Below, one piece after another: positions 217 through 21,078 of a stretch of DNA of 21,078 nt. Made by a program: the position numbers and the translations under genes. This DNA comes from a virus: the UHGV virus genome UHGV-0370164; one strand, given 5' to 3'. Under the pieces are notes generated by a model. That model saw only the letters and a program-made list of their open reading frames with translations. It did no database searches and was not told where the DNA came from. Within the stretch, counting starts at the first letter, position 1. Every line of letters starts with the position of its first letter.

Positions 217-498
217 TTACTCAGCATTCTCCTGCTTCCATTGCCGGATCATTTCATCGGTAACATCACCCTCATAACATACCACGTCATACCCTCCATT
301 ACGGCTATATGCACTGCGTCCACCACATCTACTACCATTCCTTGCATGATTATAAGGACACGCACAATTGCCAGGATAAGATTCAATGGATTCTTTAATT
401 ATTTCTTTTTTGATCTGAGCATCAGACTTTCCTGTTGCTGCATATCCACTAAAAGATACTAAACAAAGGCAGATTGCCATTAATAAACCACATCGCAT
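217..498 (-). CDS. Small secreted cysteine-containing protein, unknown function
   Basis: ORF-track frame 217..612; start placed at internal Met (MRCGLLMAICLCLVSFSGYAA...), which reads as a signal peptide; mature part has CxCPY...RCGG...C pattern. AT-rich. Start codon uncertain (alternative Met at 480). Confidence 0.45.
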   Translation of the reverse strand: MRCGLLMAICLCLVSFSGYAATGKSDAQIKKEIIKESIESYPGNCACPYNHARNGSRCGGRSAYSRNGGYDVVCYEGDVTDEMIRQWKQENAE

Positions 499-963
499 AC
501 CGATACACTCTATTACTAACCAATCATAGCCCACATCATAAAATCGAGATGAGGAGTACAATACCTTTAACAAGAAGGTGTCATAACGATAATATGTCGT
601 GCAATTCATCAAAAAAAAGATCTATATCAAAGAGATAGAACTCTTATCAGCGCTTCAGACATCGGCATTCGAGGCAGCAGAAAAACAGTAAATCTGACGA
701 ATTTGCCTTTTCCCAAGATGTTGTCAGATTAAAAAGATAGATTAGCGCAGGTACCTGTTGGTGGATTGCAGGAGGAAAAATGAAGTCGAGTGAAAAAATC
801 CCAGAAAAATTTTTGTTTAACAGAGGTCCTGGTTCACTATGCGAAATACGGAGGAGCTGCAGAAGAATTCTGCTTCATCCTTAGAGTTTAAACAGCACGT
901 GCACTACCATTGTTTCTGCATATCGCCACACCATCGCCACTCTACCGCCATTGCACAAAATAC

Positions 964-992
964 AAATACGAAAAAACCACCCGAAGGTGGTT
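964..992 (-). terminator. Intrinsic terminator downstream of the tRNA fragment
   Basis: AACCACC / GGTGGTT stem with CGAA loop; on the minus strand it is followed by TTTTTCGTATTT. It sits about 45 nt 3' of the tRNA fragment, as expected for a native tRNA terminator. Confidence 0.5.
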
Positions 993-1036
993 TCACGACA
1001 CTGCTTATTGCTTTGATTTTATTCTTATCTTTCCCA

Positions 1037-1091
1037 TGGTACCCGGAGCGGGACTTGAACCCGCACAGCGCGAACGCCGAGGGATTTTAAA
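1037..1091 (-). other. Attachment-site core: 3' 55-nt fragment of a tRNA-Leu(UAA)-like gene (partial, no 5' half)
   Basis: Reverse complement reads TTTAAAATCCCTCGGCGTTCGCGCTGTGCGGGTTCAAGTCCCGCTCCGGGTACCA: anticodon loop, long variable arm, T-arm and CCA end of a class II tRNA. Sequence 5' of it (1092-1125) is not tRNA-like. Confidence 0.7.
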
Positions 1092-1197: not shown

Positions 1198-2199
1198 TTA
1201 CCCTCTATTGTCAAAAGGGTTCAATTCAACAGCAGCCTCTAAATGACCTGGAGCAAAATGCGCATAACGCATAGTCATTTTTATATCGCTATGCCCCAGT
1301 ATTTTTTGCAACACAAGAATATTTCCGCCCCGCATCATAAAATGACTGGCAAACGTGTGACGTAGCACATGAGTTAATTGCCCATCAGGAAGCTCGATCT
1401 TCGCTCTCTTAATTGCAGCGTCAAAAGCCTCATAACATGGTGAAAATAGCGCTCCTCGTTTTTGAGGAAGCATAGCCTGCAATTGAGGTGAAATCGGTAC
1501 AGTGCGGTTCTTCTTTCCTTTAGTTTTAACAAATGTGATTCGACCGGGCAGTACTTGAGATTGCTTTAATCCTTCAGCTTCACTCCACCGAGCACCAGTC
1601 GCAAGCCCAATACGGACAACAACCCCCAAATCTTTATTCCGTGACTCATCACACGCAATCAGAAGGCGTTCAATCTCATCTACATACAGAAACGCCAGTT
1701 CCTTTTCTTCCTCACGAAACTTGCGAATACCAGTCAGGGGGTTTTCACCAGACCACTCCCCAAGGCGCTTCAGTTCGGCAAAAACAGCATGTAGATATGA
1801 CTGCTCGCGATTAACGGTTGCTTCACTAAGTTTTTTCTTCCCCTTGGGATTCCATTCTCCTGATAGCCTTCTTTCCCGATAAGTAGCAAACATATTTTTG
1901 TCAAACTGAGAAGCAAATGGATCCCCCAGCCTGGAACAAATCGCCTCAAGTTTGACTTTGCGCTCTGCACCAGAGGACAAGGTTTTACCGTACATCTCAA
2001 ACCAACGAGCAATCAACTCAGAAAGACGAGGACCAGAACCATCTTGAAACTCGTCTCCAACTCTACTATTCATTAAACGGCGCTCATAAGAGAGCGCCTC
2101 ACTTTTTGTCGCAAACTGTTTACGAATGCGTTTTCCCGATGCCCCGTAGGGATAACATTCGCAAAGCCATTTACCTGATGGAATCTTACGAACCGACAT
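1198..2199 (-). CDS. int: Tyrosine recombinase, P2-type phage integrase
   Basis: 333 aa; C-terminal catalytic region (ARWSEA..., HVLRHTFASHFMMRGGNILVLQKILGHSDIKMTMRYAHF) matches the P2 Int family as recalled; adjacent to the att core. Confidence 0.95.
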   Translation of the reverse strand: MSVRKIPSGKWLCECYPYGASGKRIRKQFATKSEALSYERRLMNSRVGDEFQDGSGPRLSELIARWFEMYGKTLSSGAERKVKLEAICSRLGDPFASQFDKNMFATYRERRLSGEWNPKGKKKLSEATVNREQSYLHAVFAELKRLGEWSGENPLTGIRKFREEEKELAFLYVDEIERLLIACDESRNKDLGVVVRIGLATGARWSEAEGLKQSQVLPGRITFVKTKGKKNRTVPISPQLQAMLPQKRGALFSPCYEAFDAAIKRAKIELPDGQLTHVLRHTFASHFMMRGGNILVLQKILGHSDIKMTMRYAHFAPGHLEAAVELNPFDNRG

Positions 2200-5792: not shown

Positions 5793-6182
5793 ATGATTGA
5801 CGCTCATGACTTCACAAGATGGGTGCGCACACAGGACACCCGTCTGGCTCCCGTTCTTCAGGGATTATTTGATCTCTACATCCGTGGTCGTGACAACAGA
5901 GCACGCACCACAAAACCGGAGAATGCAGACACCCTTTATTTCACAGTAGACGACTGCTACCGCGTGGACTTCACACCACACGGGCTGGCGTTGCACTGCC
6001 TGACACCACACGGCGAATCACTGCTGGCGTATTACGACTCCCCGGCCTCCATATTTGCGGCAATGCTGGCGCATCGCACTGCTGGCGGGTGTGCCTCGCT
6101 GAGTGAATACTCCGCTGAATTTAACCGCCTTTCCGCCCTCTTCTCACAGGAGTGGCAGCGCGTGACGGGATACCAGCCATGA
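5793..6182 (+). CDS. Hypothetical early protein upstream of gpA
   Basis: 129-aa ORF; its stop overlaps the gpA start (ATGA at 6179-6182). Confidence 0.55.
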   Translation: MIDAHDFTRWVRTQDTRLAPVLQGLFDLYIRGRDNRARTTKPENADTLYFTVDDCYRVDFTPHGLALHCLTPHGESLLAYYDSPASIFAAMLAHRTAGGCASLSEYSAEFNRLSALFSQEWQRVTGYQP

Positions 6183-9019
6183 GTGCGTTTGCATGGAGCT
6201 GGAATGAACCACGGCCAGCCATTGATCCGGCCAGATTTACGGAGCGCAGGCAGGAAACTGAAACCGACCTGCAACGCGCCATCCGTTACTACCTTGAGGC
6301 AAACAAAAGGGCACAGGAAGAACAGGAAGCGAAGGAAGAAGCCTTTTTCGCACAATCCACCGTGGGTAAAAAACTCATGGCATCCCTTGAGGAAGCCGGA
6401 CAGCGTGAAAAGCTGGCACAAAGCATCATCAGCAAGCGTCAGGCAACAGAACAAGACCCGGTGGCCCGTGCTTTTGCCACACTGAAGGTGCTTCCCGTTT
6501 ATCTGCGTGAACCTCTGAGCCGCCACCTCTCTTTTCTGCGCAAGAAGCAGGAAGCCGATCGTCAGAAAGGCAAAAAGAGCTGGCAGGCTGAACGCTACGC
6601 GCGCGGAACCCTGCGCAAAATATTCGAACGTCTGGACCGCACCGACAGCCGCTGGCTGACACCGGGCTATCGCTCCCTTGCCGGACGCGAACGCCTGGAC
6701 GATTTGCTTTACCTGCCGCAGCTCAACAAACACCAGATACAGACGCTGGCCACCATGACGGCGGCGATGTTCAGTGGCACTTTTGAAAAACTCTGCGATG
6801 GCTTTGGCGCGACCGATGGCGAGCTGACCATGGATGTAACGCTGAAGGCGTATCAGATGCTGGCCCGCATGGCGTTACACCTGCACGCTATGCCTCCACA
6901 TTATGACGCTCTGACAACAGACAAAGACCGGAGGAATGAACCGGACACGGAGCTGCTGCCGGGCGCAATCCTTCGCCTGACCTGTGCGGAATGGTGGAAA
7001 CGCAAACTGTGGCTGTTACGTTGCGAGTGGAGAGAAGAACAACTCCGCGCCGCCTGTCTGGTTTCCAGAAAAACATCACCCTATCTGAGCCAGGACGCGT
7101 TAAGCGAGTTTCGCGCACAGCGCGAGAAAACACGCGATTTCCTGAAAAGTTTCATGCTGGAAAACGAAGACGGGTTCACGATTGATCTCGAGACAGTGTA
7201 TTACGCGGGAGTAAGTAACCCGATTCACCGTAAGGCAGAAATGATGGCCACCATGAAGGGGCTGGAACTTCTGGCCGAAGCCCGTGGCGACAGAGCGGTG
7301 TTTCTGACTGTCACCTGCCCGTCAAAATACCACGCCACAACAGAGAACGGTCATCCGAATCCCAAATGGAACGGGGCCACCATGCGCGACTCCAGCGATT
7401 ACCTGGTTAACACGTTTTTTGCGGCGGTCCGCAAGAAACTGAACCGCGACGGCCTGCGCTGGTATGGCATCCGCACGGTGGAGCCTCACCATGACGGCAC
7501 CGTGCACTGGCATATGATGGTCTTTGCTCATCCGGAAGAAATCGACACCATTGTGTCCCACACCCGCGATATTGCCATTCAGGAAGACCGCCACGAGCTG
7601 GGCAATGATATTACTCCGCGCTTTAAGGTGGAGTATGTCGACGGCTCAAAAGGCACGCCAACCAGCTACATCGCCACCTACATCGGAAAGAACCTGGACA
7701 GCCGCGCCGTGGATGGCATCGACCCGAAAACGGGCAAGCCACGCGTTGACCACGAAACCGGAAAATCAATGGCCGAGAGCGTGGAACGCGCCATCGGCTG
7801 GGCACGCCTTCACCGGGTCCGCCAGTTCCAGTTCTTTGGCATCCCCTCCCGTCAGGTATGGCGTGAACTCCGCCGCCTTGCCAGCCAGATGGCACGCAAC
7901 CCGGAAGGCCCACAACGGCTGAAGGATGATGCAATGGATGCGGTACTCGCTGCCGCTGATGCCGGATGTTTTGCCACCTACATTGAAAAACAGGGTGGCG
8001 TACTTGTTCCGCGCAAGGACTACCTGATTCGCACAGCCTACGACCTCGCAGATGAGCTGAACGATTACGGCGAACAGAGTGTACAGATTTACGGGATCTG
8101 GTCGCCATTCATCGGGGAATCCTCCCGTGTGTGCACGCATCCGGATAACTGGAAGCTGGTAAGACGTAAACCGGAAGCGGAAGACAGCGCCCGCGAAAAT
8201 GGTTTTGACCTTCAGGGCGGCCCTGCCGCCCCTTGGACTCGTGGCAATAACTGTCCCCGTGTACAGGAAACAGGCAACAACGGGACAGAACAGCCGGAAG
8301 AACGGCCAGCACCGTGGCCGCAGCTTCCTGACGGCGTTGAAGTAAATGAATGGATGCGCTCACTGAAACGGCACGAACGCCGGGCGCTGATGCGTTCGCT
8401 TCGTGACAAACAGGCAAAAAACAGCAGCGATGAAATGCAGAACTGGACACAGAGCCGCAAACAGCAGCGGCCTTTGCCTGATAACCACGAGTTACTCGCT
8501 AAAGAATGGCGGGAGTCTGCTGAATCTCTCGGCCTGCATATCGGTGAACAACAGATGCAGCACCTGTTACGGGGCGGCAGTCTGTACGTTGACGGCAGCA
8601 TCATTGCACCGCAGGGATTTGAAATTGTACGCAAACCGGATACCCGCCCGGACAGCCGAATCACGCAGCTCTGGCAGCGTCTGAGCCGTAATCATGGCGT
8701 AAGCAGCACGGAGATCCGCCATAACCCGGTCGCCAGCTATCTGGCACAGCTGGGGGCATCAGACCCTGAAGCCGCCGCACGCCTGGCATCCACACTTCAG
8801 CAGGACCAGAACACCATGAAAACACCCGTTACCGTGCTTTCTGACATGCTGCGCGCCATCCGCGACGCAGAGCACGCACAGAGAATCAGTGAAACCACTG
8901 AACGCGCCAGCCGCAAAGCAGACCTGCTGCGGGGTGGCCTGACCAGTGGAAACAAAAAACAGACAGAAACGGGACTCACGAATCCCGTAAATGAGCAAAA
9001 AACGCGCAGCGATATATGA
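6179..9019 (+). CDS. Rolling-circle replication initiator, P2 gpA-like
   Basis: 946 aa from the ATG at 6179; HUH-type motif (GTVHWHMMVF) and paired tyrosines (TSYIATYIGKN) typical of the gpA family; Q/R-rich C-terminal tail. Confidence 0.85.
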   Translation: MSAFAWSWNEPRPAIDPARFTERRQETETDLQRAIRYYLEANKRAQEEQEAKEEAFFAQSTVGKKLMASLEEAGQREKLAQSIISKRQATEQDPVARAFATLKVLPVYLREPLSRHLSFLRKKQEADRQKGKKSWQAERYARGTLRKIFERLDRTDSRWLTPGYRSLAGRERLDDLLYLPQLNKHQIQTLATMTAAMFSGTFEKLCDGFGATDGELTMDVTLKAYQMLARMALHLHAMPPHYDALTTDKDRRNEPDTELLPGAILRLTCAEWWKRKLWLLRCEWREEQLRAACLVSRKTSPYLSQDALSEFRAQREKTRDFLKSFMLENEDGFTIDLETVYYAGVSNPIHRKAEMMATMKGLELLAEARGDRAVFLTVTCPSKYHATTENGHPNPKWNGATMRDSSDYLVNTFFAAVRKKLNRDGLRWYGIRTVEPHHDGTVHWHMMVFAHPEEIDTIVSHTRDIAIQEDRHELGNDITPRFKVEYVDGSKGTPTSYIATYIGKNLDSRAVDGIDPKTGKPRVDHETGKSMAESVERAIGWARLHRVRQFQFFGIPSRQVWRELRRLASQMARNPEGPQRLKDDAMDAVLAAADAGCFATYIEKQGGVLVPRKDYLIRTAYDLADELNDYGEQSVQIYGIWSPFIGESSRVCTHPDNWKLVRRKPEAEDSARENGFDLQGGPAAPWTRGNNCPRVQETGNNGTEQPEERPAPWPQLPDGVEVNEWMRSLKRHERRALMRSLRDKQAKNSSDEMQNWTQSRKQQRPLPDNHELLAKEWRESAESLGLHIGEQQMQHLLRGGSLYVDGSIIAPQGFEIVRKPDTRPDSRITQLWQRLSRNHGVSSTEIRHNPVASYLAQLGASDPEAAARLASTLQQDQNTMKTPVTVLSDMLRAIRDAEHAQRISETTERASRKADLLRGGLTSGNKKQTETGLTNPVNEQKTRSDI

Positions 9020-9095: not shown

Positions 9096-10055
9096 ATGAA
9101 AATTTACATCGACGACGGCTCCACCAACATCAAGCTGGCATGGACTGAGAACGGCGAACGCCGCAACGCCATCAGCCCGAACAGCTTCAAGTCGGAATGG
9201 TCTGCGCCGTTCGGTGGCTCGCAGCCTGCTAACTACATGCTTGATGGCGTGCGCTATGGTTTTGATCCGGTCAGCGATCGCTTTGTCCAGACGACCGACA
9301 CGCAATACCAGTACAGCGATGTGAATGTCATTGCCATTCATCACGCGCTGGTCAAATCAGACATCACGCCACAGGAAGTGGATGTGGTTGTTACCCTGCC
9401 ACTGAGCGAATATTTCGACACAAACGCACAGCCGGACATGGCCAACATCAACCGCAAAAAAGCGAACGTCATGCGCCCGGTGGAGTACCAGAACGGCGAA
9501 GCATTCACTATCCGTAACGTACGGGTTATGCCTGAATCCATTCCGGCTGGCTTTAAAGCACTGGCTGACATGAGTCCGTTTGAATCCCTGCTGATTGTGG
9601 ATTTGGGCGGAACCACGCTGGATGTGGCAAAGGTTCAGGGGCAACTGGCAGGTATCAGCCAGGTGTTTTGCGATCCACACGTAGGCGTTTCTCTTATGGC
9701 CGATGCCGTACTGTCGGTGATGGCCACTAACGGTATGCGCACCAGTCACCACATCGCCAATACCATTATCGAACATCGCCATAATGAAGCCTGGCTGCGC
9801 CAGCACATCCACAATGACGCGCATTACGCCAGCCTGATGGCGGTTATTCGTGAAAAGGAAGAAACACTGAAACAACGCGTGATCCGCGCGCTGGCGGTTT
9901 TTTCGGGTTACGGGCGGGTGATGGTTGTCGGTGGCGGGGCGGAGATTGTGGCACCCGCTATCCGCGAAGCCTGCGGAGTTAATGCGACTTTCATCGCGGA
10001 CGGGGTGCCACAGTTTGCTCTGGTTAATGGGCTGTACGCAATGGACAAGGAGTAA
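9096..10055 (+). CDS. parM: ParM/StbA-family actin-like partition ATPase
   Basis: 319 aa; matches plasmid R1 ParM as recalled along its length (IDDGSTNIKL, ISPNSFK, YSDVNV, VMPESIPAG, DLGGTTLD, GVSL, GGGAE, LVNG); AAGGAAAA Shine-Dalgarno. Confidence 0.9.
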   Translation: MKIYIDDGSTNIKLAWTENGERRNAISPNSFKSEWSAPFGGSQPANYMLDGVRYGFDPVSDRFVQTTDTQYQYSDVNVIAIHHALVKSDITPQEVDVVVTLPLSEYFDTNAQPDMANINRKKANVMRPVEYQNGEAFTIRNVRVMPESIPAGFKALADMSPFESLLIVDLGGTTLDVAKVQGQLAGISQVFCDPHVGVSLMADAVLSVMATNGMRTSHHIANTIIEHRHNEAWLRQHIHNDAHYASLMAVIREKEETLKQRVIRALAVFSGYGRVMVVGGGAEIVAPAIREACGVNATFIADGVPQFALVNGLYAMDKE

Positions 10056-10059
10056 ACCA

Positions 10060-10371
10060 ATGACGACACCAACCAGACGGATAAGTTTCTATCTGAAGCC
10101 CGCCGCCGTCAAGAACGAAGGAGAAGCATGCGCCTGGCTGGACAGCCTTACACCAGAAGCCCGCAAAAGCGGCCAACGCGTGGCTTTTCTGGCCGGGCTG
10201 GCACTTCTGAAGACGAATCCGGCAGAGGCTTACCGACTGGCCGCATGGGCTGATGATGAGATGTTACCTGTGACACAAATCAGCTCAAAAAAGTTTGAAG
10301 CACAGTCTGCACCAGTGGCTAAGATAACCAGCCAGATGGCTGGGAATATCCGGGCGTTATTTCCTGAGTAA
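10060..10371 (+). CDS. parR: ParR-like partition adaptor/repressor
   Basis: 103 aa from the ATG 4 nt after the parM stop; N-terminal RRISFYLKP...AC.WLDSL...ER...LAGLAL and C-terminal IRALFPE resemble R1 ParR as recalled. Confidence 0.8.
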   Translation: MTTPTRRISFYLKPAAVKNEGEACAWLDSLTPEARKSGQRVAFLAGLALLKTNPAEAYRLAAWADDEMLPVTQISSKKFEAQSAPVAKITSQMAGNIRALFPE

Positions 10372-11490: not shown

Positions 11491-12537
11491 TCAGGATGTG
11501 GGCTGGGTATCTAGCAGTGCGTAAGGGTTAAAGCGGATCACCTCTTCGCCAAGCCAGTCATTGATGTGCTTCATGGCCTCCATGACGGGCATCAGCTCGT
11601 TAATTGCGTAAACCCGCGCGGCCTTCTCCACATCACCAAACGCACTTTTTTCGCCCGGCATCGCCCCCATCAGTTGCGGCGGAACGCGGTGCGCAGCCAG
11701 CACATCATCACGGGATGCCGCCTTAACATTCATGAACTCATCCTTTGCAGTGATCTGCTGGAACGGCAAAATTTGCACACCTTCTTTGCCCCCGTTGGGC
11801 GCATGGATGAGTACGTTTTTAAACGCACCACCACCACGCGCGCCCTGTAACGTTTCTTTCAGGGAGTCCATGCTTTCGCGGTTTACCTGCGCTGCACCGA
11901 TGTAGATGATGCACCCGGCGTGGGATCCGTTGTCGTAGTACAGTTTTCTGAACATGTCCGCCGAATGAGAAAGGCTGGCCGAGAGTAATGCGCCAAGATA
12001 TTCCGGCATGCCGTAGATTTCCTGGTTAATATCCGGATTCATCAGGTGGCACACTTTGCCAGGGCGAAACTGGAACGCGTCCTTGCCATCCTGCACATAC
12101 CACCATGATTCAAGATCGCTTCCGCGTCGCATGTATTTCGCCAGGGCGTGCCGTAATTTAAGCGGTTCGCCGAGCATATTGCTTCTAAGCTCAAGGAATG
12201 CGTTACCGAACACAAACCAGTCCAGCGCCAGCGCCGAGAAATCCTGCCGGGAAAGCAGCGGGTGCGGGATGTAGCAACCGAGTAATACATTGCGCTTAAA
12301 GTAAAGCGCAGACTGATGCCAGGACGTTTGCCGGGCTGCTCTTGCCAGACCGTACCAGTCCACCGGGGTTTCATACCACCGTCCGTTATCAGCACAGTAC
12401 ATATTGTCCAGCAGGTCATGCCCGGTCAGGCGATAAGGACCATCAAATGTGAATGCACTGAGCGATGATTCTTTCCTGAGCGCATCAGCGAGATCAATGC
12501 GTGAACTCATGCGCACTTTTTTATTTTTTCTGCTCAT
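11491..12537 (-). CDS. Portal protein, P2 gpQ-like
   Basis: 348 aa, right size for P2 Q; directly downstream of and overlapping the terminase gene on the same strand. Called from context and size. Confidence 0.85.
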   Translation of the reverse strand: MSRKNKKVRMSSRIDLADALRKESSLSAFTFDGPYRLTGHDLLDNMYCADNGRWYETPVDWYGLARAARQTSWHQSALYFKRNVLLGCYIPHPLLSRQDFSALALDWFVFGNAFLELRSNMLGEPLKLRHALAKYMRRGSDLESWWYVQDGKDAFQFRPGKVCHLMNPDINQEIYGMPEYLGALLSASLSHSADMFRKLYYDNGSHAGCIIYIGAAQVNRESMDSLKETLQGARGGGAFKNVLIHAPNGGKEGVQILPFQQITAKDEFMNVKAASRDDVLAAHRVPPQLMGAMPGEKSAFGDVEKAARVYAINELMPVMEAMKHINDWLGEEVIRFNPYALLDTQPTS

Positions 12538-14396
12538 CAGAACTCCATAACCGTGAAACGCTCGTTTTCTCCTTCGCCGCCAATCGGTTCGTTAATGACA
12601 GCAAGCATGGTTGCCCACGCAAGGTCGCCGTGGCTGATCCCCCTCGCGCGGTCCGTTTCGTAAGTGATAAAGCCGCCCGGTGTTTTCACCTTACGCACGG
12701 CGTTAAAGGCCGCGACCAGCTCGCGTTCGGCGCGATCGTATTCCCACCGCCCGGCACGCATTATTTGCAGCATTTTCAGTACCAGCGACCGTTTTGATGA
12801 CAGCGTGAAGGTGTACGGAATAGCAGCAGGGAAAAACCGTTTCACTATCTGATAAACAGCCTCCCCGTTCCCGCCCGTCACATCAATGCCGATGTGTTCC
12901 ACGTTGTAGCGATACGTGAACTCTTCAATGACTCTGGCCTGTTCTTCAAACTCCAGCCCCTGAACGCGTCGCGTCTCCACCGTTCGAAAACGGCCACCAA
13001 GAACAGCCGGAGGAACCACCACGGACACAGCGCCGCTGTCGCCGTTGCCACTACTGCCGTTTGCGTCATACCCAATCCATACCGGACGATTCCCCATCGG
13101 GCGGGGAGCAAAAGGTTTCCAGTCTTTCCAGTCGTCGTATCCGTCAACACCGCAGCCAATCAGGATATTCAGGTTAAATGCCGATTCCCCTTCGCGGACA
13201 AACTCACACATATAGAGATTGAGGAACTCGTCTTCGGTGTTTTCATCACGAATTTCGTCGATATCGGTGTGTTTCCAGCCGTGATTGACCACATCTTCCA
13301 GCGTGACAATTTGCCGCCACGTCCGGTCAGGGCAGATAAGCCCGTTATGCAGAGTTTTCCAGTCCACAGAAAAACGCTGGCGTTTATGCGTGGCCTTTTT
13401 CTCGTTCCAGCGGTCGCCGTTCCAGTAGGCGTATGCCTCGTGCGTTTCGGTGGATGGCGTGGAGAAGTAGGTGCGCCGCAGTCCGCTGAGGGTTGCCATA
13501 GCGCCAGCCACCTTGCGCAGTTCAGCAAAGCGACTGACCCAGAAAAATTCATCAAAATAAAAATTGCCCGTATAGGACTGTGCCGACGCAGCAGAAGTGC
13601 CGAGAAAATGCAGCTCTGCGCCGTTGGAGAGGATGATTTTATCGCCCCCTTTCAGCTCCACATCAACTTCAGCCGCGGCCTTCTGAATAATGCTTTTAAA
13701 CTGGAACGCCTGACGACGCGACGCAGACAAAAAAATCTGGTTACGCTGGTAAGGTTGCGCCACATCGTCACGCAGCGCCATCAGCAGAGCTTCCTGTGCA
13801 AAATACCAGGTCGCCCCAATCTGTCGGGATTTCAGGATCATCCTGTTACGTATCCCGGCTTCCCTGCAAAGGGTCAGGGAGTCAAACCAGCCCCGCTGAT
13901 GCCACTCCAGCCTGCTGATGATTTTTTCCCGCAGTGCGGCAATCTGTTCCGGCGTGAAATGATTTTTGAGTTTTTTCGCCCGGCCTTTCTTTCCTGTGAC
14001 CGTCGCATCCGGCTGGCCATCATGCAGTTTTTTAAGCTGCCGGGTCAGCAGGTCTATTTCCTTAAAGTCACCGCCTGTTTTATTCTGTTTTTCAGTAAGC
14101 TGGATGAGGCGCGCATCGATGGACTGCGTGACACGCTGCACGGGTGGCGTTTCATCCCACTGGTCGCGTTTTTTCCACGCATAAATCGTGTTCGGGTTTA
14201 TTCCCATCAGACGTGATATTTCTGCGGGCGGATAATCGAACCCACACAGAATATGGCCATCAGCGACATACAGGCGGCGCGCTGTGAGTCGTTCACCATC
14301 AGCGAAGGTGGGCGCAATGAGTAATTCACTGTTACCACCATCAGCCAGCAGTTTCATGCGTTGTGCCGAAGCTGTCGGAACGCGCATTACAGACAT
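12537..14396 (-). CDS. Terminase large (ATPase) subunit, P2 gpP-like
   Basis: Long minus-strand ORF with a deviant Walker A-like segment (ILKSRQIGATWYFAQEA). Start uncertain: GTG at 14432 or ATG at 14396/14387/14357, none with a good Shine-Dalgarno; all overlap the gpI start. Confidence 0.8.
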   Translation of the reverse strand: MSVMRVPTASAQRMKLLADGGNSELLIAPTFADGERLTARRLYVADGHILCGFDYPPAEISRLMGINPNTIYAWKKRDQWDETPPVQRVTQSIDARLIQLTEKQNKTGGDFKEIDLLTRQLKKLHDGQPDATVTGKKGRAKKLKNHFTPEQIAALREKIISRLEWHQRGWFDSLTLCREAGIRNRMILKSRQIGATWYFAQEALLMALRDDVAQPYQRNQIFLSASRRQAFQFKSIIQKAAAEVDVELKGGDKIILSNGAELHFLGTSAASAQSYTGNFYFDEFFWVSRFAELRKVAGAMATLSGLRRTYFSTPSTETHEAYAYWNGDRWNEKKATHKRQRFSVDWKTLHNGLICPDRTWRQIVTLEDVVNHGWKHTDIDEIRDENTEDEFLNLYMCEFVREGESAFNLNILIGCGVDGYDDWKDWKPFAPRPMGNRPVWIGYDANGSSGNGDSGAVSVVVPPAVLGGRFRTVETRRVQGLEFEEQARVIEEFTYRYNVEHIGIDVTGGNGEAVYQIVKRFFPAAIPYTFTLSSKRSLVLKMLQIMRAGRWEYDRAERELVAAFNAVRKVKTPGGFITYETDRARGISHGDLAWATMLAVINEPIGGEGENERFTVMEF

Positions 14397-14847
14397 CCCG
14401 GTAGACCTCAACACGCTGTGGTCGCCGGACACCTGCCCGGTGCACCTGCTGCCTTATCTCGCCTGGGCATTTTCCGTTGACCGCTGGGATCGCAACTGGC
14501 CGGAAGAGACAAAACGACAGGTGATTCGTGATGCATGGCTGATACACCGACACAAAGGGACCATCAGCGCACTGCGCAGGGCCATTGAGCCGCTGGGATA
14601 CCTCATTCGCGTGTCTGAGTGGTGGGAGTTCGGCGGAGAACCGGGAACATTTACCGTTGAAGTCGGCACACTGGACAGTGGCGTGACGGAGGAAATGTAT
14701 CTGGAAATGGAGCGGTTGATTGCTGATGCCCGTCCGGTCAGCCGCCACATGACAGGGCTGAATATCATTCAGGAAATTCCGGGGGATATTTTTGCAGCGG
14801 CGGCAACTCATGACGGTGAAGTTATTACCATTTATCCGGACGATTAA
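14317..14847 (+). CDS. Baseplate assembly protein, P2 gpI-like
   Basis: 176 aa from the ATG at 14317 (AAGGTGG Shine-Dalgarno); [44 protein letters not shown] match P2 gpI as recalled. Confidence 0.85.
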
Positions 14848-14849: not shown

Positions 14850-16982
14850 ATGAGTACCACAACACGAAAATTTAAAACCGTTATCACCGATACAGGTGCA
14901 AAAAAATTAGCTCAGGCAGCCGCGCCAGATGGTAAGCCTGTCCGCCTGACTCATATGGCCGTGGGCGACGGTGGCGGCGCGTTGCCCACACCAGACAGTA
15001 AGCAGACCCGTCTGGTGCATGAGGTGTGGCGACACACTGTTAATCGCGTCATCCTGGACGCAACACATCAGAACCGCATTATTGCGGAGCTGGTTATTCC
15101 TCCAGAAACGGGCGGATTCTGGATCCGGGAAATTGGTGTGTTTGATGAGCACGGCGATTTAATCGCGGTGGGCAATACTGCCGAAAGTTACAAGCCAGCC
15201 GTTGCCGAAGGGTCCGGACGTGCACAAACATTTCGCACCATTCTGACCGTATCCAGCACTGCCACTGTGGCGCTTACCGTGGATAACACCATGGTGATGG
15301 CCACAGTGGATTACGTGGATAACAAACTGAAAGAGCATGAACAGTCACGATGTCACCCGGATGCCTCGCTGACCGCAAAAGGCTTTGTTCAACTCAGTAG
15401 CGCCACTAACAGCGATTCTGAAACGCTGGCTGCAACGCCGAAAGCGGTTAAGGTCGCGTATGATCTTGCTAACGGAAAATATACAGCGCAGGATGCCACA
15501 ACAGCGCGAAAAGGCCTTGTCCAGCTTAGTAGTGCAACCAACAGTACATCTGAAACGCTGGCGGCAACATCAAATGCAGTAAAAGCTGCCTATGACAATG
15601 CTGAAAAACGTCTGCAGAAAGCTAAGAATGGTGAGGATATCTCTGATAAAGACACCTTTACGAAAAATATCGGTGCCTGCCGTGCATATAGTGCAGAGCT
15701 GAATATTGGTGGAGATAGTGAAGCATGGACAACTGCGCAGTTGATTTTTTGGCTAGAGAGTCAGGGGGCATTTAACCATCCTTACTGGATGTGCAAAGGC
15801 TCATGGGCTTATGCAAATAATAAGGTCATTACAGATACAGGTTGCGGAAGTATTTGTCTTGCAGGTGCTGTTGTGGAAGTTATTGGCACCCGCGGCGCAA
15901 TGACCATACGCATTACCACACCGAGTACATCCAGCGGTGAAGGCATCCCTAATGCTCAATTTACTTATATTAATCATGGTGATGCTTATGCTCCTGGCTG
16001 GCGAAGGGACTATAACTCCAGGAATAAGCCAACAGCATCAGAGATCGGGGCGTTACCGTCAGATGGGACAGCAGTATCGTCAGTTAATCTGGCTTCAAAA
16101 GGTCGGCTGACCGCCCTGACAGATAATATGCAGGGGGCCACAGGTCTGGAGTTATACGAGGCGTATAACAACGGATATCCAACAACGTATGGAAATATCA
16201 TTCACCTGAAAGGGATGACAGCCGTTGGCGAAGGCGAATTACTCATCGGCTGGAGTGGTATAAGCGGTGCTCATGCTCCGGCATTTATTCGTTCACGACG
16301 GGATACGACCGACGCAAACTGGTCGCCGTGGGCGCAGCTTTACACCTCGGCTCATCCTCCTGAAGAGTTTTATCCAGTCGGTGCACCGATTCCGTGGCCA
16401 TCAGATACCGTTCCGTCTGGTTATGCCCTGATGCAGGGGCAGACTTTTGACAAATCTGCATACCCGAAACTTGCAGTCGCTTATCCGTCAGGCGTTATTC
16501 CTGATATGCGTGGCTGGACGATTAAGGGCAAGCCCGGCAGTGGTCGTGCCGTATTGTCTCAGGAACAGGACGGCATTAAATCGCACACCCACAGCGCCAG
16601 CGCATCCAGTACGGATTTGGGGACGAAAACCACATCGTCGTTTGATTACGGTACTAAAACGACCAGTTCATTTGATTACGGCACAAAAACTACGAATAGC
16701 GCTGGAAATCATTCACACAATATACCTGTTGGTCACACTGGCGCGGGGAATGGTGTATCAGCCGGTTATAACGCTGCGTTAGGTACTGGTACCACGTCGA
16801 GCGCAGGCGAGCATGCTCACAATGTATATATCGGTGCCCATAACCACACTATCGGCATTGGTGCTCATGCCCATTCTGTCATTATTGGTCCCCACGGACA
16901 CACCATCACCGTTAACGCTACGGGTAACGAAGAAAACACCGTAAAAAACATCGCATTTAACTATATTGTGAGGCTTGCATAA
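14850..16982 (+). CDS. Tail fibre protein, P2 gpH-like, with His-rich distal domain
   Basis: 710 aa; conserved N-terminal fibre domain ([48 protein letters not shown]) and duplicated [17 protein letters not shown] segment; C-terminus has HxH-type repeats. Confidence 0.9.
16620..16694 (+). repeat. Tandem 30-bp coding repeat in the tail-fibre gene
   Basis: 2.5 copies encoding [10 protein letters not shown] / [10 protein letters not shown] / GTKTT; copies differ at synonymous sites. Confidence 0.6.
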
Positions 16983-17560
16983 TGACATTCAGAATGAGTG
17001 AACACTCACGGACCATAAAAATTTATAATCTACTGACCGGAACCAATGAGTTTATTGGTGAAGGTGATGCATACATTCCACCTCATACAGGTCTGCCTGC
17101 AAACAGTACCGATATTGCCCCGCCAGATATTCCGGCTGGCTTCGTGGCCGTTTTCAACAGTGATGAGGCATCGTGGCATCTCGTTGAAGACCATCGGGGT
17201 AAAACGGTTTATGACGTGGCATCAGGGGACTCGTTATTTATTTCTGAACTCGGTCCATTACCGGAAAATGTTACCTGGTTGTCGCCGTATGGAGAGTATC
17301 AGAAGTGGAACGGCACATCCTGGGTGAAAGATGCAGAAGCAGAAAAACTGTTTCGGATAAGGGAGGCGGAAGAAACAAAAAACAGCCTGATGCAGGTAGC
17401 CAGCGAGCATATTGCGCCACTTCAGGATGCCGTAGATTTGGATATTGCAACGGAGGAAGAGGCATCGTTACTGGCTGCATGGAAGACATACCGGGTATTG
17501 TTGAATCGTGTTAATACAGCGGTAGCAGCGGATGTTGAGTGGCCAGTCGCCCCACAATAA
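16982..17560 (+). CDS. Tail fibre assembly chaperone, gpG/Tfa-like
   Basis: 192 aa; start overlaps the H stop (TAATG); position and size fit a fibre assembly protein. Confidence 0.8.
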
Positions 17561-17603: not shown

Positions 17604-18161
17604 CTATTTATACAATACAACACCGCTCTTTTTAGTTATATATGTGCAGTTCGATGGTATATCTTTATTTATAAAAGACATTGCACCTATTTTTACATTA
17701 TCCCCAATTTTACGTGATAATCCAATGATGCAACAATTAGCTCCGATATCAACGTTACTACCAATTTTTACTCTTGAACCAGGCATGTCACCATCTATCT
17801 GTCCAATGGTAGTATTCTGTCGTAACACCAGATTTTCACCAGCATCAACAGCAAAATGAACAACAATTCCAGCATGATGGGGAATTGTTAACCCTTTTCC
17901 AATATTTGCGCCCAATCCAATTTCACAACCAAATTTGTTAATTATTTTACTGTTTAACTTTTTGGCTGCTTTCTTATGTAATTTATTACCATTAATATAC
18001 ATTTCGTTAGCCAACCGCCACCAGAAAAGGAAATTCCGGTTACGCTGTTTTTTCTCTCTTAAAAGCCTCCAGATATCCATACGTTTCCGCCGAATTACTT
18101 CATATTTCCAGAAGTTTTTTAAATTAGTAGAGTCCCCAAATAAAACAAAGTGAATTGCCAT
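17604..18161 (-). CDS. Hexapeptide-repeat acetyltransferase (WcaB/CysE-like), cargo gene
   Basis: Pattern FLFWWRLAN...FGCEIGLGANIG...TIPHHAGIVV...IGSNVDIGANCCIIG... fits the left-handed beta-helix acetyltransferase family. AT-rich. Start uncertain (GTG 18209, ATG 18161 or ATG 18080). Confidence 0.7.
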   Translation of the reverse strand: MAIHFVLFGDSTNLKNFWKYEVIRRKRMDIWRLLREKKQRNRNFLFWWRLANEMYINGNKLHKKAAKKLNSKIINKFGCEIGLGANIGKGLTIPHHAGIVVHFAVDAGENLVLRQNTTIGQIDGDMPGSRVKIGSNVDIGANCCIIGLSRKIGDNVKIGAMSFINKDIPSNCTYITKKSGVVLYK

Positions 18162-18332
18162 TAAGTAAGACAGCACGATAATCTCCTTAATTATTATTTC
18201 AGACCACACATATTATAAGGTTAAGAGATTATAAAATCCTGTTGTTTGTTATTCAAAAACAATTTTCTGAGAAGGACATACAACAGCAAGTCGCCAGTCA
18301 CCTTCATCAGGAAATTGGCGACATACGTTAAA

Positions 18333-18827
18333 TCAGAGCAGCCCCTTAACTGAGCTGGTCGCGCTATTAAGGGATGATGTCACCTTATCTTTGAAGCCGG
18401 ACAACATATCGCTGAACGATGAGGATTGCAGGCGCTCCCGCAAATCCTCATCACAGCGTTCAAGAGTCAGTGAAAATTCTATCTTTTTCGCCTTACCGTA
18501 GCGATCAAACTCGGAGCGGGTCGTATTCGTTTCGGTCAGGACATACATGCCGTAAATCTGCCCGACGCCATCAATCAGAGGCCAGGGCCGTCCTGTATAC
18601 GCCTGCGTGGTCAGCAGAGACAGCGACACTTCGCCACCTGTAATTTCAGGATAAAGCACACCAGAAAGAACGATGCGATCATCACCTGCACCGATATACT
18701 GCCAGCTTGCTGAACGGTTAACGCGTTCATTTTTCACATGCCGCCAGCTTTTGTTTTGCTGTAACTGCTGATGCGGCAGCGTGCGCAGCTCAAAAACAAA
18801 CATGCCATAGATCATCATCATGGCCAT
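18333..18827 (-). CDS. Tail protein, P2 gpU-like
   Basis: 164 aa immediately downstream of the tape-measure gene; GGAG Shine-Dalgarno between T stop and start; N-terminus MAMMMIYGMFVFEL...WRH resembles gpU as recalled. Confidence 0.75.
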   Translation of the reverse strand: MAMMMIYGMFVFELRTLPHQQLQQNKSWRHVKNERVNRSASWQYIGAGDDRIVLSGVLYPEITGGEVSLSLLTTQAYTGRPWPLIDGVGQIYGMYVLTETNTTRSEFDRYGKAKKIEFSLTLERCDEDLRERLQSSSFSDMLSGFKDKVTSSLNSATSSVKGLL

Positions 18828-18833
18828 GACTCC

Positions 18834-21078
18834 TCAATCTTTATCGTAAAAACTGCCACGCCCGGCACGGGCGCGCCGTTCCATTTCTGCCCTGACCATT
18901 TCACCGACCAGTTTCGCCAGTTCGCGGGGATTCTGCGTAACAACGTTATGCAGATGAACATGAATTTCACCGCCAAATCTGGAGACAGCAGGCTCCCGAT
19001 TACGGGAAGCTGCAGGAACTGATGCCACTGGCGATCGTATGGCCTCCGCCACCGGGCGGGAGCTGGCCGCAACAACAGGGACCAGCGCCGGAGGCAGCGG
19101 AGCCGGGACTACGGGTGTGATATTAATTGCGGGGGCAGGCTTACTGACCTGCGCAATCTTCCGCTCCTGCCACTCCCCACGAACAGCAAGTGCGCGGGGC
19201 AGGTTCTTAAAGACAATATCGCCAGGGCCAATGCGTTTTTTCGTCTCATCAACCAGCTTACCTGTGTTATCAGCAATTTTGCTGAGTCTGCGTAGCGTCC
19301 CGGTATTGCTGTCTGTGAGCGGTTTGTTGTCTTTGGGTTTATCACCTCCGGTGCCATTGCCATTTTCCACAGGCTTCGGCGGATTGATTTTCGCCAGGTC
19401 CCCCTGAAGTAAGGCAACCTTATCCTGAAGAATGGCCGCACGCTGTGCGTCTTCGATTTTCTTGCGCGCCCTTTCCGCTTCATCCGGAAGGACGCCAAGT
19501 TTTTCAAGTATCCACGCCAGCGTATCCAGTAGCATTTTTGCAGGTGTCAGAACAAGTTGTAACGCACCGCCAAGAACGTTACCGAATATCTCGCCAGCAC
19601 TGGTACATTTATCCAGCGTTTCCTTGCTGGACTCCATCGGTGACAGCAGCGATTTAAACCAGTTAAACACCTGGCTGATCCCGCTTCCGATTGCGTCAAA
19701 AACAGGGCCAAACCGTTCAAAGGTTTCACGCAACGGGTTCAGCCTTTCCATAATCCCGCTGAACACCCCGGCAAAAAATGCCCTGATGGGATCCCAGTAT
19801 TTCCAGATAAGGACGGCAGCTCCGGCAAGCGCAGCCACGATAAGACCAACCGGACTGAACAGCGCCCCGATAGCGCCTCCCAGTAAAGAAACGGAACCCG
19901 TCACCATTCCCCATAGTGCTGGCAGGACCCTGACAGCATTCATTGATCCGGTCAGGAGAGAAAAACCAAGACGCAGTTTTGCCAGCGGACCAGCAAGCAC
20001 ACCAATAGCCAGCGACAACGAGCCAACCGTTGCAGTCATTGCCAGCAACGCACCGCCTGCTATCAGTAGCTGGCGCGTCAGTGCCGGATGGGCCTGCGCC
20101 AGCGCCGTCACCCTTGATACCACCCGCGTGAGCCACTGCGTGACAGAACGCAGCGGACCGTCAATCAGATCTGCAATGCGGATGCGCAACCCTTCCCATG
20201 CACTGCCGAGTGATTTCAGATCGCCGTCAAGGTTGTTGGCCATAACCTTTGCTGTGCGTTCAGCCTCACCGCGCGCGCCTTCAAGTTCTTTTCTCAGTTT
20301 GGGTAAGGAACCGTCACCCACTGCATCAACGAGCGCCATAAACGATGTGAAAGCCTCTTCTCCGGCAATGTCCTTAAAGAACGATACCCGGTCAACTTCC
20401 CCGTATTTGCGGGTGGCTTTATAAAGGTCGGCCAGCACATCCTCCATCGGGCGCATTTTGCCCCCGGCATCCGAGACGGACACGCCCAGCTCTTTCAGAG
20501 CTTCTGCCGCCGCCTTTGGCGGTGATGCCAGACGAGCCAGGCTGGCACGCATTGCCGTCCCGGCATCACTCCCTCTGATGCCCATATTCGCCAGCACACC
20601 AGCCATCGCTGCGGCCTGCTCCAGCGATATTCCCAGCTTACCCGCCACCGGACCTGCATATTTCATGGTTTCGCCCAGTGCGCGAAGGTCAGTGTTGGTA
20701 CGGGTAAACGCTGCGGTGAGTGTGTCACCGACCCGGTCCATCTGGTCAGCAGAAAGGCCGAACTGCGTCAGGATATTTGAGCCAATATCTGCCGTCTCGC
20801 CGAGATCCATACCGCCAGCCGTTGCCATGCTCAGCACTCCGGGAAGCGCAGCCTGAATGGCCTGCGGTGTGAAGCCTGCCATTGCAAGAAATGCCTGCCC
20901 ACTGGCGGCATCGCCTGCGGTGAACTGCGTTTCAGAGCCAAGTTTTAACGCCTGCTCACGCAGCGCCTTAAACTGCGGGCTGTTCTGGTCGATTCGCGTC
21001 AGCGCCTGAACGCGGGACATCTCTTTGCCGAACCCGATCGCGGGCTGCAAAAAACGCCCGGCAGCATAGCCGCCCGCC
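18834..21078 (-). CDS. Tail tape-measure protein, gpT-like (5' end beyond window)
   Basis: Over 740 aa, Ala/Gly-rich with a hydrophobic central segment; frame stays open to the window edge. Confidence 0.85.
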   Translation of the reverse strand, partial: AGGYAAGRFLQPAIGFGKEMSRVQALTRIDQNSPQFKALREQALKLGSETQFTAGDAASGQAFLAMAGFTPQAIQAALPGVLSMATAGGMDLGETADIGSNILTQFGLSADQMDRVGDTLTAAFTRTNTDLRALGETMKYAGPVAGKLGISLEQAAAMAGVLANMGIRGSDAGTAMRASLARLASPPKAAAEALKELGVSVSDAGGKMRPMEDVLADLYKATRKYGEVDRVSFFKDIAGEEAFTSFMALVDAVGDGSLPKLRKELEGARGEAERTAKVMANNLDGDLKSLGSAWEGLRIRIADLIDGPLRSVTQWLTRVVSRVTALAQAHPALTRQLLIAGGALLAMTATVGSLSLAIGVLAGPLAKLRLGFSLLTGSMNAVRVLPALWGMVTGSVSLLGGAIGALFSPVGLIVAALAGAAVLIWKYWDPIRAFFAGVFSGIMERLNPLRETFERFGPVFDAIGSGISQVFNWFKSLLSPMESSKETLDKCTSAGEIFGNVLGGALQLVLTPAKMLLDTLAWILEKLGVLPDEAERARKKIEDAQRAAILQDKVALLQGDLAKINPPKPVENGNGTGGDKPKDNKPLTDSNTGTLRRLSKIADNTGKLVDETKKRIGPGDIVFKNLPRALAVRGEWQERKIAQVSKPAPAINITPVVPAPLPPALVPVVAASSRPVAEAIRSPVASVPAASRNREPAVSRFGGEIHVHLHNVVTQNPRELAKLVGEMVRAEMERRARAGRGSFYDKD

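What the first reader, a model, noticed from the sequence alone, without database searches (positions are those of the whole stretch)
14284..14432. Terminase and gpI genes collide head-to-head: capsid, lysis and baseplate module missing
The minus-strand terminase ORF and the plus-strand gpI gene overlap at their 5' ends by 40-115 nt. In P2, the capsid/scaffold/small-terminase genes (O N M L), lysis genes and baseplate genes V W J lie between P and I. Their absence with a fused junction indicates a deletion of several kb, so this prophage cannot make capsids. Retention of replication, partition and tail genes is notable.
Basis: partly seen in the sequence, partly recalled or inferred. Interest (0 to 1): 0.55.

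Follow-up and report, generated by a model that had tools for sequence, protein, structure and literature searches.

The report
Deleted P2-family prophage, recurrent breakpoint
An E. coli P88-like (P2-family) prophage has lost 9.75 kb holding its capsid, lysis and baseplate genes, which is ordinary prophage decay, except that five other independent deletions in related prophages start at the same 4-nt spot in the terminase gene.

Summary
The large-terminase gene (minus strand) abuts tail gene I (plus strand), and everything P2-type phages carry between them is missing.

An intact prophage in E. coli SCU-105 differs from the window at 3 bases in about 21 kb and places both endpoints. Exactly 9,752 bp are gone, joined at window 14235/14236 across a 5-bp microhomology (GATAA).

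- **Lost:** terminase codons 1-18, the P-O promoter region, 14 whole genes (O, N, M, L, X, holin, endolysin, LysB, LysC, DUF6645, R, S, V, W) and 90% of J.
- **The "5' overlap":** this is antisense read-through of the J/I sequence, not terminase coding sequence.
- **Not an artefact:** the same junction occurs in four public contigs.
- **Consequence:** the element cannot make capsids, baseplates or lyse cells, so it is neither a phage nor a tailocin. This is inferred from gene content.

One result was unexpected. Five other deletion alleles in related prophages share this left endpoint within 4 nt (window 14232-14235). Their right endpoints range from 1.4 to 18.4 kb away. Tests for a CRISPR target, an IS insertion, and cos-, ori-, Chi- or hairpin-like features were negative or, for Chi, unsupportive. 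The hot spot remains unexplained.

The window also carries an attP-type junction, meaning a tandem or circular form.

The parts
1..970 (.). Right end of a P88-like prophage: last 28 nt of hok/gef, and a 93-aa hypothetical gene at 217-498 (minus strand). It lies to the LEFT of the integrase.
   Evidence: Window 1-1091 matches the prophage right end plus attR of SCU-105 at 99.9%.
971..1091 (.). 121-bp att core (the terminator following leuZ plus the 3' part of tRNA-Leu). Here it is flanked by the phage right end on one side and int on the other, an attP-type junction.
   Evidence: The stretch matches both attL (L002 6001-6121) and attR (L002 43311-43431). ARAGORN finds no complete tRNA.
1198..2199 (-). 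Integrase.
   Evidence: RefSeq annotation of the near-identical SCU-105 region; Pfam Phage_integrase on the homologous gene call in related contigs L017 and L021.
6179..9019 (+). gpA replication endonuclease. The ori nick region is at about 8216-8254.
   Evidence: The P2 ori nick region aligns to gene positions 2038-2076.
9096..10371 (+). ParM and ParR partition genes.
11491..12537 (-). Portal gene (gpQ), intact.
12537..14235 (-). Large terminase gene (gpP) lacking its first 53 nt (18 codons), its start codon and its promoter.
14231..14235 (.). Deletion junction. GATAA microhomology is present at both parental sites. Positions 14232-14235 are the recurrent left breakpoint.
14236..14324 (+). 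Last 89 nt of baseplate gene J (stump).
   Evidence: Equals L002 29018-29106.
14236..14432 (-). Non-native extension of the terminase ORF through the antisense of J/I. It is a reading-frame accident, although public gene calls use ATG 14396.
14317..14847 (+). Tail gene I, intact (176 aa).
14850..17560 (+). Tail fibre gene H and fibre-assembly gene G, intact but cut off from any upstream late promoter.
17604..18176 (-). Hexapeptide acetyltransferase cargo gene (moron).
18333..21078 (-). gpU and the 3' part of the tape-measure gene T, which runs off the window.

Best explanation
The window is a P88-like (Peduoviridae, P2-family) temperate phage of E. coli that integrates at leuZ.

A single illegitimate joining event removed 9,752 bp. 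It runs from codon 18/19 of the large-terminase gene to 89 nt before the end of baseplate gene J, and was joined across a 5-bp microhomology (GATAA).

The event removed:
- the terminase start codon;
- the divergent P/O late-promoter region;
- scaffold, major capsid, small terminase and head-completion genes;
- X, holin, endolysin, LysB and LysC;
- a DUF6645 gene;
- tail-completion genes R and S;
- baseplate genes V and W, and most of J.

What remains is a defective prophage. It keeps integrase, immunity, replication (gpA plus ori), ParMR, the region where cos should lie, portal, a truncated promoterless terminase, I-H-G, and (beyond the window) the sheath-tube operon. On its own it cannot build capsids or baseplates, or lyse the cell. 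This functional consequence is inferred from gene content, not shown.

The left endpoint is not random. Six distinct deletion alleles in this phage family begin within the same 4 nt and extend only rightward, by 1.4-18.4 kb. This points to a site-preferred 3' end (from a break, a nick or a polymerase stall) at ...GCGGGCGGATA, joined by 0-5 nt of microhomology. Such alleles may then persist because they remove the lethal lysis and capsid functions. The agent that creates the end is unknown.
For: **Endpoints and size**
- Homology to P88-like phages stops at window 14235.
- SCU-105 carries the intact 37.3-kb prophage. It matches the window in three pieces, with 3 mismatches in about 21 kb.
- Parental and junction sequences were read directly and the deleted length computed as 9,752 bp.

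**Polarity**
- The terminase lacks residues 1-18, and its Terminase_5 domain score drops from 92 to 61 bits.
- Only an 89-nt stump of gpJ remains.

**Gene order in intact relatives**
-.

**The junction is real**
- The junction-spanning 619-aa protein exists in the public protein collection.
- The junction lies in 4 contigs from ENA and Logan. Three are 100% identical to the window over 6-16 kb and the fourth is 99.98%.

**Promoter loss**
- P2's record places the pP/pO activator site between P and O, and pV upstream of V. The whole 154-bp P-O spacer is deleted.
- No sigma-70-like promoter site lies within 13800-14900.

**Hot spot**
- Logan contigs L020, L021 and L022 have deletions of 6,040, 4,639 and 9,149 bp.
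- IMG/VR locus L059 is the same allele as the complete genome of E. coli B2C, and L070 is a further allele.
- All have left ends at reference 13564-13567, which is window 14232-14235.
- Junction microhomology is TA in four alleles, GATAA in one and none in one.
Against: - No experiment shows that the element is non-inducible.
- The part of the element beyond the window (the rest of T, then E, tube, sheath, D, ogr) was not seen in the source molecule.
- Three of the six hot-spot alleles were found by a look-up that could only detect left endpoints within an ~80-nt range. In the unbiased samples only 2 of 120 IMG/VR loci, 0 of 61 metagenome loci and 1 of about 1,083 complete genomes carry a hot-spot allele.
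- Deletions with other endpoints also occur: 13639, 13952, 14005, 14255 and 14354.
- No sequence feature explaining the hot spot was found.
Confidence: 0.88

Rival explanations
1. Assembly or chimera artefact: the junction does not exist in any real molecule.
For: The junction 38-mer is absent from GTDB genomes, IMG/VR and JGI metagenomes. It is also absent from 5,426 complete E. coli genomes, from plasmids and from phage records.
Against: The same junction appears in four contigs built by different pipelines from different accessions: ENA ERZ652123, ENA ERZ28650758, Logan SRR8090674 and Logan SRR4408200. Only 5 bp of homology spans the join, too little to cause a de Bruijn mis-join.
Confidence: 0.02
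2. Natural alternative gene order: this phage lineage keeps its capsid, lysis and baseplate genes elsewhere.
For: None beyond the fact that the window does not show the whole element.
Against: A relative differing at 3 bases in about 21 kb has those genes between P and I. The terminase and gpJ are visibly truncated. The window wraps from the phage right end through att to int, which leaves only the T-to-hok segment unseen.
Confidence: 0.01
3. Domesticated tail module (R-type tailocin-like particle producer): capsid genes were shed while a working contractile tail was kept.
For: I, H, G, U and T are retained in the window, and sheath and tube genes lie beyond it in relatives.
Against: Baseplate genes V and W and 90% of J are deleted. 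So are tail-completion genes R, S and X, and the whole lysis cassette. I-H-G has lost its upstream promoter(s). Replication, partition and integrase genes are kept, unlike in tailocin loci.
Confidence: 0.03
4. Helper-dependent or plasmid-like derivative. The 27.6-kb deletion genome persists and spreads either as a tandem partner of an intact copy (packaged in trans) or as a ParMR/Hok-stabilised circle, rather than being a dead remnant.
For: - The window has an attP-type junction (phage right end, att core, int), which no complete E. coli genome shows.
- It retains int, gpA with ori, ParMR and the region where cos should lie.
- The allele occurs in four public assemblies, three of them 100% identical to the window.
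- A 37,450-bp contig of a relative has the same circularly permuted layout.
Against: - Contig NODE_29 extends about 38 kb to the left of the window start, which does not fit a simple 27.6-kb circle.
- At 74% of genome length, packaging is doubtful (own knowledge of cos-phage size limits).
- Identical alleles in several samples could simply reflect one clone.
- Nothing here was tested for packaging or episomal maintenance.
Confidence: 0.1
5. The shared left endpoint is a coincidence of random microhomology-mediated deletions plus selection. No site-specific process exists.
For: - Late-region deletions are common in this family, and others have different endpoints.
- Hot-spot alleles are rare: 1 of about 1,083 complete genomes.
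- No structural or sequence motif was found.
Against: - Six alleles with different right ends fall within 4 nt. They include two from a lineage only 98.8% identical to the reference.
- Under a uniform expectation over the ~80-nt range the look-up could detect, three extra hits within +/-3 nt have probability of about 7e-4 (own calculation).
- Only one other allele (13639) ends in the adjacent 207 nt of equally dispensable sequence.
Confidence: 0.12

Closest known systems
Escherichia phage P88 and relatives (Xuanwuvirus, Peduoviridae), e.g. vB_EcoM-569R5 and the SCU-105 prophage
   Same: - Identity is 97.8-99.1% over portal/terminase and near 100% to the SCU-105 prophage.
- Same int, immunity, gpA, ParMR, Q-P and I-H-G layout.
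- The att lies in the terminator stem-loop beside leuZ. P88's published 14-bp attP, GCCACCCGAAGGTG, matches window 977-989 in 13 of its 14 bases (PMC5285337).
   Different: P88 is mitomycin-inducible and forms plaques, with 50-nm heads and 140-nm tails (PMC5285337). The window copy lacks the 9.75-kb capsid/lysis/baseplate block and the terminase start.
Bacteriophage P2 (NC_001895)
   Same: The order Q-P | O N M L X Y K lysA lysB lysC R S | V W J I H G defines what is missing. The late promoters pP/pO and pV lie in the deleted interval. The ori nick region inside gene A is conserved.
   Different: There is little nucleotide identity. P88-like phages add ParMR, Hok, DUF6645 and an acetyltransferase gene. 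Their sheath-to-U operon is inverted relative to P2. No match to the P2 cos 19-mer was found.
Defective prophages of E. coli, e.g. the O157 Sakai prophage pool (PMC2669165), and the decayed copies at leuZ in FORC_031 and B2C
   Same: Internal deletions remove morphogenesis genes while integrase and regulatory genes stay. FORC_031 lost gpO through gpJ, and B2C lost terminase-5' through gpN plus gpM through gpI.
   Different: The window allele differs from an intact prophage at only 3 bases in about 21 kb, so it is very recent. Its left endpoint is shared to the nucleotide with five other alleles.
One-fixed-end deletions: IS/IEE excision-associated deletions (PMC9943667), and deletions anchored at rolling-circle origin nick sites (own recollection of Michel & Ehrlich 1986, not checked here)
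   Same: One endpoint is fixed to the nucleotide. The other is variable, from a few nt to tens of kb away. Joins use little or no homology.
   Different: No IS lies at or near the site in 1,083 complete genomes or 181 public loci. The site has no similarity to the phage ori nick region.

Membership tests
P88-like / P2-family (Peduoviridae) temperate phage | High nucleotide identity to sequenced members | tested here: met
   97.8-99.1% over window 12000-14235 to P88-like phages. Near 100% to the SCU-105 prophage.
P88-like / P2-family (Peduoviridae) temperate phage | P2-type genes: gpA nickase, Q portal, P terminase, I/H/G, U, T | tested here: met
   Pfam and PHROG hits.
P88-like / P2-family (Peduoviridae) temperate phage | Complete morphogenesis and lysis gene set (functional phage) | tested here: not met
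   14 genes plus parts of P and J are deleted. It is a defective derivative, not a functional member.
P88-like / P2-family (Peduoviridae) temperate phage | Integration at the leuZ terminator / tRNA-Leu att site | tested here: inconclusive
   The att core is present (971-1091), but it is flanked by phage DNA on both sides in attP form. The chromosomal junctions lie outside the window.
R-type tailocin / domesticated contractile tail | Complete baseplate (V, W, J, I), tail completion genes and a lysis cassette, with capsid and replication genes absent | tested here: not met
   V, W, J (90%), R, S, X, holin and endolysin are absent. gpA, ParMR and int are present.
P4-like or other phage satellite | Own primase/helicase and capsid-redirecting genes, with no helper structural genes | tested here: not met
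   All genes are collinear and near-identical with the helper-type phage itself.
CRISPR self-targeting escape deletion | A spacer matching the breakpoint region in E. coli genomes | tested here: not met
   The 54-nt probe across the site hits only prophage copies: 1,083 records, of which 1,082 are full-length. The one partial hit is the B2C deletion itself.
IS / IEE excision-associated deletion | An IS at the fixed endpoint in the allele or in relatives | tested here: not met
   No insertion at the site in 1,083 complete-genome records, 120 IMG/VR loci or 61 metagenome loci. The junctions carry no extra bases.
Deletion anchored at a phage nick or cut site (ori or cos) | Sequence similarity of the hot spot to the ori nick region or to cos | tested here: not met
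   No similarity to the P2 or own ori or to the cos region. No second copy of the site exists in the phage.
RecBCD/Chi-limited resection endpoint | A correctly oriented Chi or near-Chi at the fixed end, and none closer to the breaks | tested here: not met
   The prophage has no Chi at all. The adjacent octamer GCGGGCGG is a 2-mismatch variant, while twelve 1-mismatch variants further right are not endpoints.
DNA gyrase-mediated illegitimate recombination | A gyrase cleavage site (4-bp stagger, preferred bases) at both partners | not testable with these tools
   All crossovers fall inside one 4-nt window, ATAA. However, the quinolone-type preference for scission before G (PMC6379681) is not met, and junction 4-mers are mosaics rather than either parental 4-mer.

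The most novel reading that the evidence does not exclude
P88-like prophages carry a site in the first 56 nt of their terminase gene (…GCGGGCGGATA|ACCC) where a specific DNA end is generated. The agent could be an unrecognised nuclease or nickase (host defence, competing mobile element or phage-encoded), or a replication barrier. This end repeatedly seeds one-directional deletions that strip out the capsid and lysis genes. That would be a mechanistic route to prophage disarmament, rather than random decay plus selection.
Probability: 0.3. Interest if true: 0.6.

Novelty: new member of a known kind. Interest (0 to 1): 0.33.

Why it matters
As found, this is a routine example of how prophages become defective. 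Its practical value is as an annotation warning. Public gene calls at this junction give a chimeric 619-aa terminase and a shortened 135-aa gpI.

The recurrent breakpoint is the part worth following. Prophage domestication is usually modelled as random deletion filtered by selection. A nucleotide-precise, one-sided hot spot in an abundant E. coli prophage family (present in about 20% of complete genomes) would give a tractable system for finding what initiates such deletions.

Tried and rejected
**Junction searches.** The 38-mer was not found in GTDB genomes, IMG/VR or JGI metagenomes. It was also absent from plasmids and from complete E. coli genomes. It turned up only through an exact look-up of the chimeric protein.

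**Explanations of the hot spot that were tested and not supported**
- **ssDNA hairpin or unusual fold:** z-scores of 0.5 and 0.9.
- **Similarity to the cos region or the P2 cos 19-mer:** none.
- **A second copy of the site in the phage:** none.
- **Similarity to the gpA ori nick region:** none.
- **Chi or Chi-like control of resection:** not supported.
- **CRISPR spacer:** none.
- **IS insertion at the site:** none.
- **Left-directed deletions anchored at the same site:** none in IMG/VR, only a SNP.
- **Gyrase:** considered from the 4-nt crossover window, but the base preferences do not fit.

**Other checks that led nowhere**
- PADLOC found no defence genes among the small cargo ORFs.
- The P2 late-promoter motif TGT-N12-ACA is not present as an exact match in the P-O spacer of the intact relative. 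Promoter loss is therefore argued from position, not from the motif.
- Literature searches for the sample accessions, for P2-like prophages at leuZ, and for the mouse-gut phage Nef gave nothing usable.
- I could not read the 38 kb of contig NODE_29 that lies left of the window, because the flank limit is 10 kb.
Full report
**What is at the coordinates.** The ORF list shows a 631-codon minus-strand ORF (12537..14432) and a 187-codon plus-strand ORF (14284..14847). Their mechanical 5' ends overlap over 14284-14432, exactly the reported interval. Pfam identifies the first as a P2-type large terminase (Terminase_5, Terminase_6N, Terminase_6C) and the second as Tail_P2_I. The neighbours are a portal gene (11491..12537, minus), tail fibre gene H (14850..16982), fibre-assembly gene G (16982..17560), gpU and the tape-measure gene.

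**Identity of the element.** Megablast against phage records gives 97.8-99.1% identity to P88-like phages (Peduoviridae, Xuanwuvirus) over window 12000-14235, and the homology stops abruptly at 14235. In one of them, vB_EcoM-569R5, the terminase is followed by the scaffold, major capsid, small terminase, adaptor, X, holin and endolysin genes.

Against 5,426 complete E. coli genomes, the best match is the chromosome of strain SCU-105. It carries an intact 37.3-kb prophage between yecA and leuZ. The window maps to it in three pieces with one mismatch each:
- window 1-1091 matches the prophage right end plus attR;
- window 971-14235 matches attL through the terminase;
- window 14231-21078 matches the end of gpJ through the tape-measure gene.

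P88 itself is a mitomycin-inducible, plaque-forming myovirus. Its published 14-bp att site, GCCACCCGAAGGTG, matches window 977-989 in 13 of its 14 bases, inside the terminator stem-loop (PMC5285337).

**The deletion.** I read both parental sites in SCU-105 and the junction in the window. The sequences are:
- left parent: ...TTTCTGCGGGCGGATAA|CCCTGCC;
- right parent: ...GCGTGGAGATAA|TCGAACCC;
- window: ...TTTCTGCGGGCGGATAA|TCGAACCC.

The missing segment is 9,752 bp, and GATAA is shared by both parents. By the SCU-105 annotation, the deleted segment contains:
- the first 53 nt of the terminase gene;
- the 154-bp P-O spacer;
- 14 complete genes: gpO, gpN, gpM, gpL, gpX, holin, endolysin, LysB-like, LysC, a DUF6645 gene, gpR, gpS, gpV and gpW;
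- 808 of the 897 nt of gpJ.

Window terminase residues 67-631 equal residues 19-583 of the intact protein at 100%, and everything upstream is unrelated. The N-terminal Terminase_5 domain is clipped, and its score falls from 92 to 61 bits. The truncated genes show that the window is the derived state. With only 3 differences from an intact copy in about 21 kb, the event is very recent.

**The "overlap".** Positions 14236-14432 on the minus strand are the antisense of the gpJ stump and the gpI 5' end, which happens to stay open in frame. gpI starts at ATG 14317 and is intact. Public gene calls take ATG 14396, giving a 619-aa chimera, and shorten gpI to 135 aa to avoid the overlap. That is an annotation artefact.

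**Is the junction real?** The junction 38-mer is absent from GTDB genomes, IMG/VR and JGI metagenomes. It is also absent from complete E. coli genomes, plasmids and phage records. However, the exact 619-aa chimeric protein is in the 15-billion-protein collection. It is encoded on contigs from ENA ERZ652123, ENA ERZ28650758, Logan SRR8090674 and Logan SRR4408200. Three of these are 100% identical to the window across the junction over 6-16 kb, and the fourth is 99.98%. Different assemblers and accessions, together with only 5 bp of homology at the join, rule out a mis-assembly. I could not establish whether SRR8090674 and ERZ28650758 are the same sample.

**Consequences (inferred).** P2's record places the activator site for pP and pO between P and O, and pV upstream of V, with I, H and G in the V operon. 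By position, every late promoter that could drive portal/terminase or I-H-G lay in the deleted segment. No sigma-70-like site lies in 13800-14900. The two gene blocks now diverge from the junction, so read-through cannot supply them either.

Without scaffold, capsid, small terminase and head-completion genes the element cannot make heads. Without V, W, J, R, S and X it cannot make baseplates or finish tails. Without holin, endolysin and the spanin-like LysB/LysC genes it cannot lyse the cell. The retained tail genes therefore do not make it a tailocin. It keeps int, the repressor region, gpA with its ori (the P2 nick region aligns at window ~8216-8254), ParMR, and the non-coding stretch upstream of the portal where cos lies in P2 by synteny. 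No match to the P2 cos 19-mer was found.

**An unexpected regularity.** I looked up the terminase read from its next internal ATG (556 aa). This found three more contigs, each essentially identical to SCU-105 (two at 100%, the third with two mismatches) but each with a different deletion:
- L020: 6,040 bp, ending in DUF6645;
- L021: 4,639 bp, ending in LysB;
- L022: 9,149 bp, ending in gpJ.

Their left endpoints are reference positions 13564, 13566 and 13566. The window's is 13567.

Two of them (L059, L070), from a lineage 98.8% identical to the reference, break at 13566 and resume 1.4 kb and 18.4 kb downstream. L059 is the same allele as the complete genome of E. coli B2C.

That makes six alleles with right ends in gpN, LysB, DUF6645, gpJ, the gpJ 3' end and the sheath gene. 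All share a left end within window 14232-14235. The junctions use TA (four alleles), GATAA (one) or no microhomology (one).

Other late-region deletions in the same samples have scattered left ends: 13639, 13952, 14005, 14255 and 14354. No leftward deletion anchored at the site was found in IMG/VR.

The alleles are rare: 2 of 120 IMG/VR loci, 0 of 61 metagenome loci, and 1 of about 1,083 complete-genome records. Three of the six came from a look-up limited to an ~80-nt range. Even so, chance agreement within +/-3 nt is about 7e-4 (own calculation).

**What could make a fixed end.** I tested the explanations that sequence data can address:
- no unusual single-strand fold;
- no resemblance to the cos region or the P2 cos;
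- no resemblance to the gpA ori nick region;
- no second copy of the site in the phage;
- no Chi anywhere in the prophage, while nearer 1-mismatch Chi-like octamers are not endpoints;
- no CRISPR-spacer-like match in any complete E. coli genome;
- no IS at the site in any of about 1,260 copies examined. An IS would be needed for IEE-type excision deletions, which otherwise give just this fixed-plus-variable pattern (PMC9943667).

All six crossovers fall inside one 4-nt window (ATAA), which recalls a 4-bp staggered cut. However, the gyrase base preference reported in PMC6379681 is not met, and the junction 4-mers are mosaics.

The most economical description is a top-strand 3' end at ...GGATA that is not resected and is joined by terminal microhomology to variable downstream sites. 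That fits a strand-specific nick, or a polymerase stall followed by template switching or end joining. The agent is unknown.

**Other context.** Window 1-970 is the right end of the same kind of prophage (hok tail and a 93-aa gene). It is followed by the 121-bp att core and then int, which is an attP-type arrangement. No complete E. coli genome has it. A 37,450-bp contig of a relative does (L017), as expected for an excised circle.

For the deletion allele, contig NODE_29 (57 kb) continues about 38 kb to the left of the window start and ends in gpU. That fits a tandem array better than a 27.6-kb circle, but I could not read that part.

**Verdict.** The finding itself is ordinary prophage decay in a known phage family, now mapped to the nucleotide. 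The recurrent, one-sided breakpoint is new to me and unexplained, and it is the only reason the score is above the level of a routine remnant.

Noticed in passing
window 1-1091 (att core 971-1091): The phage right end (hok tail and a 93-aa gene) is joined through the 121-bp att core to int. This is an attP-type junction, implying a tandem prophage array or a circular form. No complete E. coli genome shows it. A 37,450-bp contig of a relative (L017) does. Contig NODE_29 with the deletion runs about 38 kb further left.
   Followed up: partly
window 14232-14235; loci L020, L021, L022, L059, L070, L143: Six distinct deletion alleles in P88-like prophages share this left endpoint within 4 nt and extend only rightward, by 1.4-18.4 kb. 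The cause is unknown.
   Followed up: yes
L003 (E. coli FORC_031) and L143 (E. coli B2C): Related prophages at leuZ carry other, independent multi-kb deletions. FORC_031 lost gpA-to-terminase and gpO-to-gpJ segments. B2C lost a gpM-to-gpI segment. FORC_031 also has a second integrase island in tandem on the yecA side.
   Followed up: partly
L009, L013, L018: In some genomes the leuZ prophage is reduced to sheath-through-fibre-assembly genes, joined through IS elements to ParR. These are further decay states of the same family.
   Followed up: no
window 14317-14847 and 12537-14396; L005-L008: Public gene calls at the junction give a 619-aa chimeric terminase and cut gpI to 135 aa. This is an annotation artefact caused by the accidental open frame.
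   Followed up: yes
window 9096-10371, and hok at window 1-28: This P2-family phage carries a plasmid-type ParM/ParR partition pair and a Hok/Gef toxin gene. Circular ~34-kb 'plasmid' records of relatives exist (NZ_CP148288.1). This may hint at episomal maintenance.
   Followed up: no
window 5793-6182: The 129-aa protein upstream of gpA is named 'inositol monophosphatase' in RefSeq but only matches a PHROG of unknown function. The name is likely wrong.
   Followed up: partly
whole SCU-105 prophage (reverse complement of L004, 38 kb): There is no canonical Chi site (GCTGGTGG) on either strand of the 38-kb region.
   Followed up: no
L002 40348-41487 (outside the window): The intact prophage encodes a 379-aa SEC-C / 'YecA family' protein near its right end, while the host gene flanking attL is yecA. 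This may be a coincidence or a captured paralogue.
   Followed up: no
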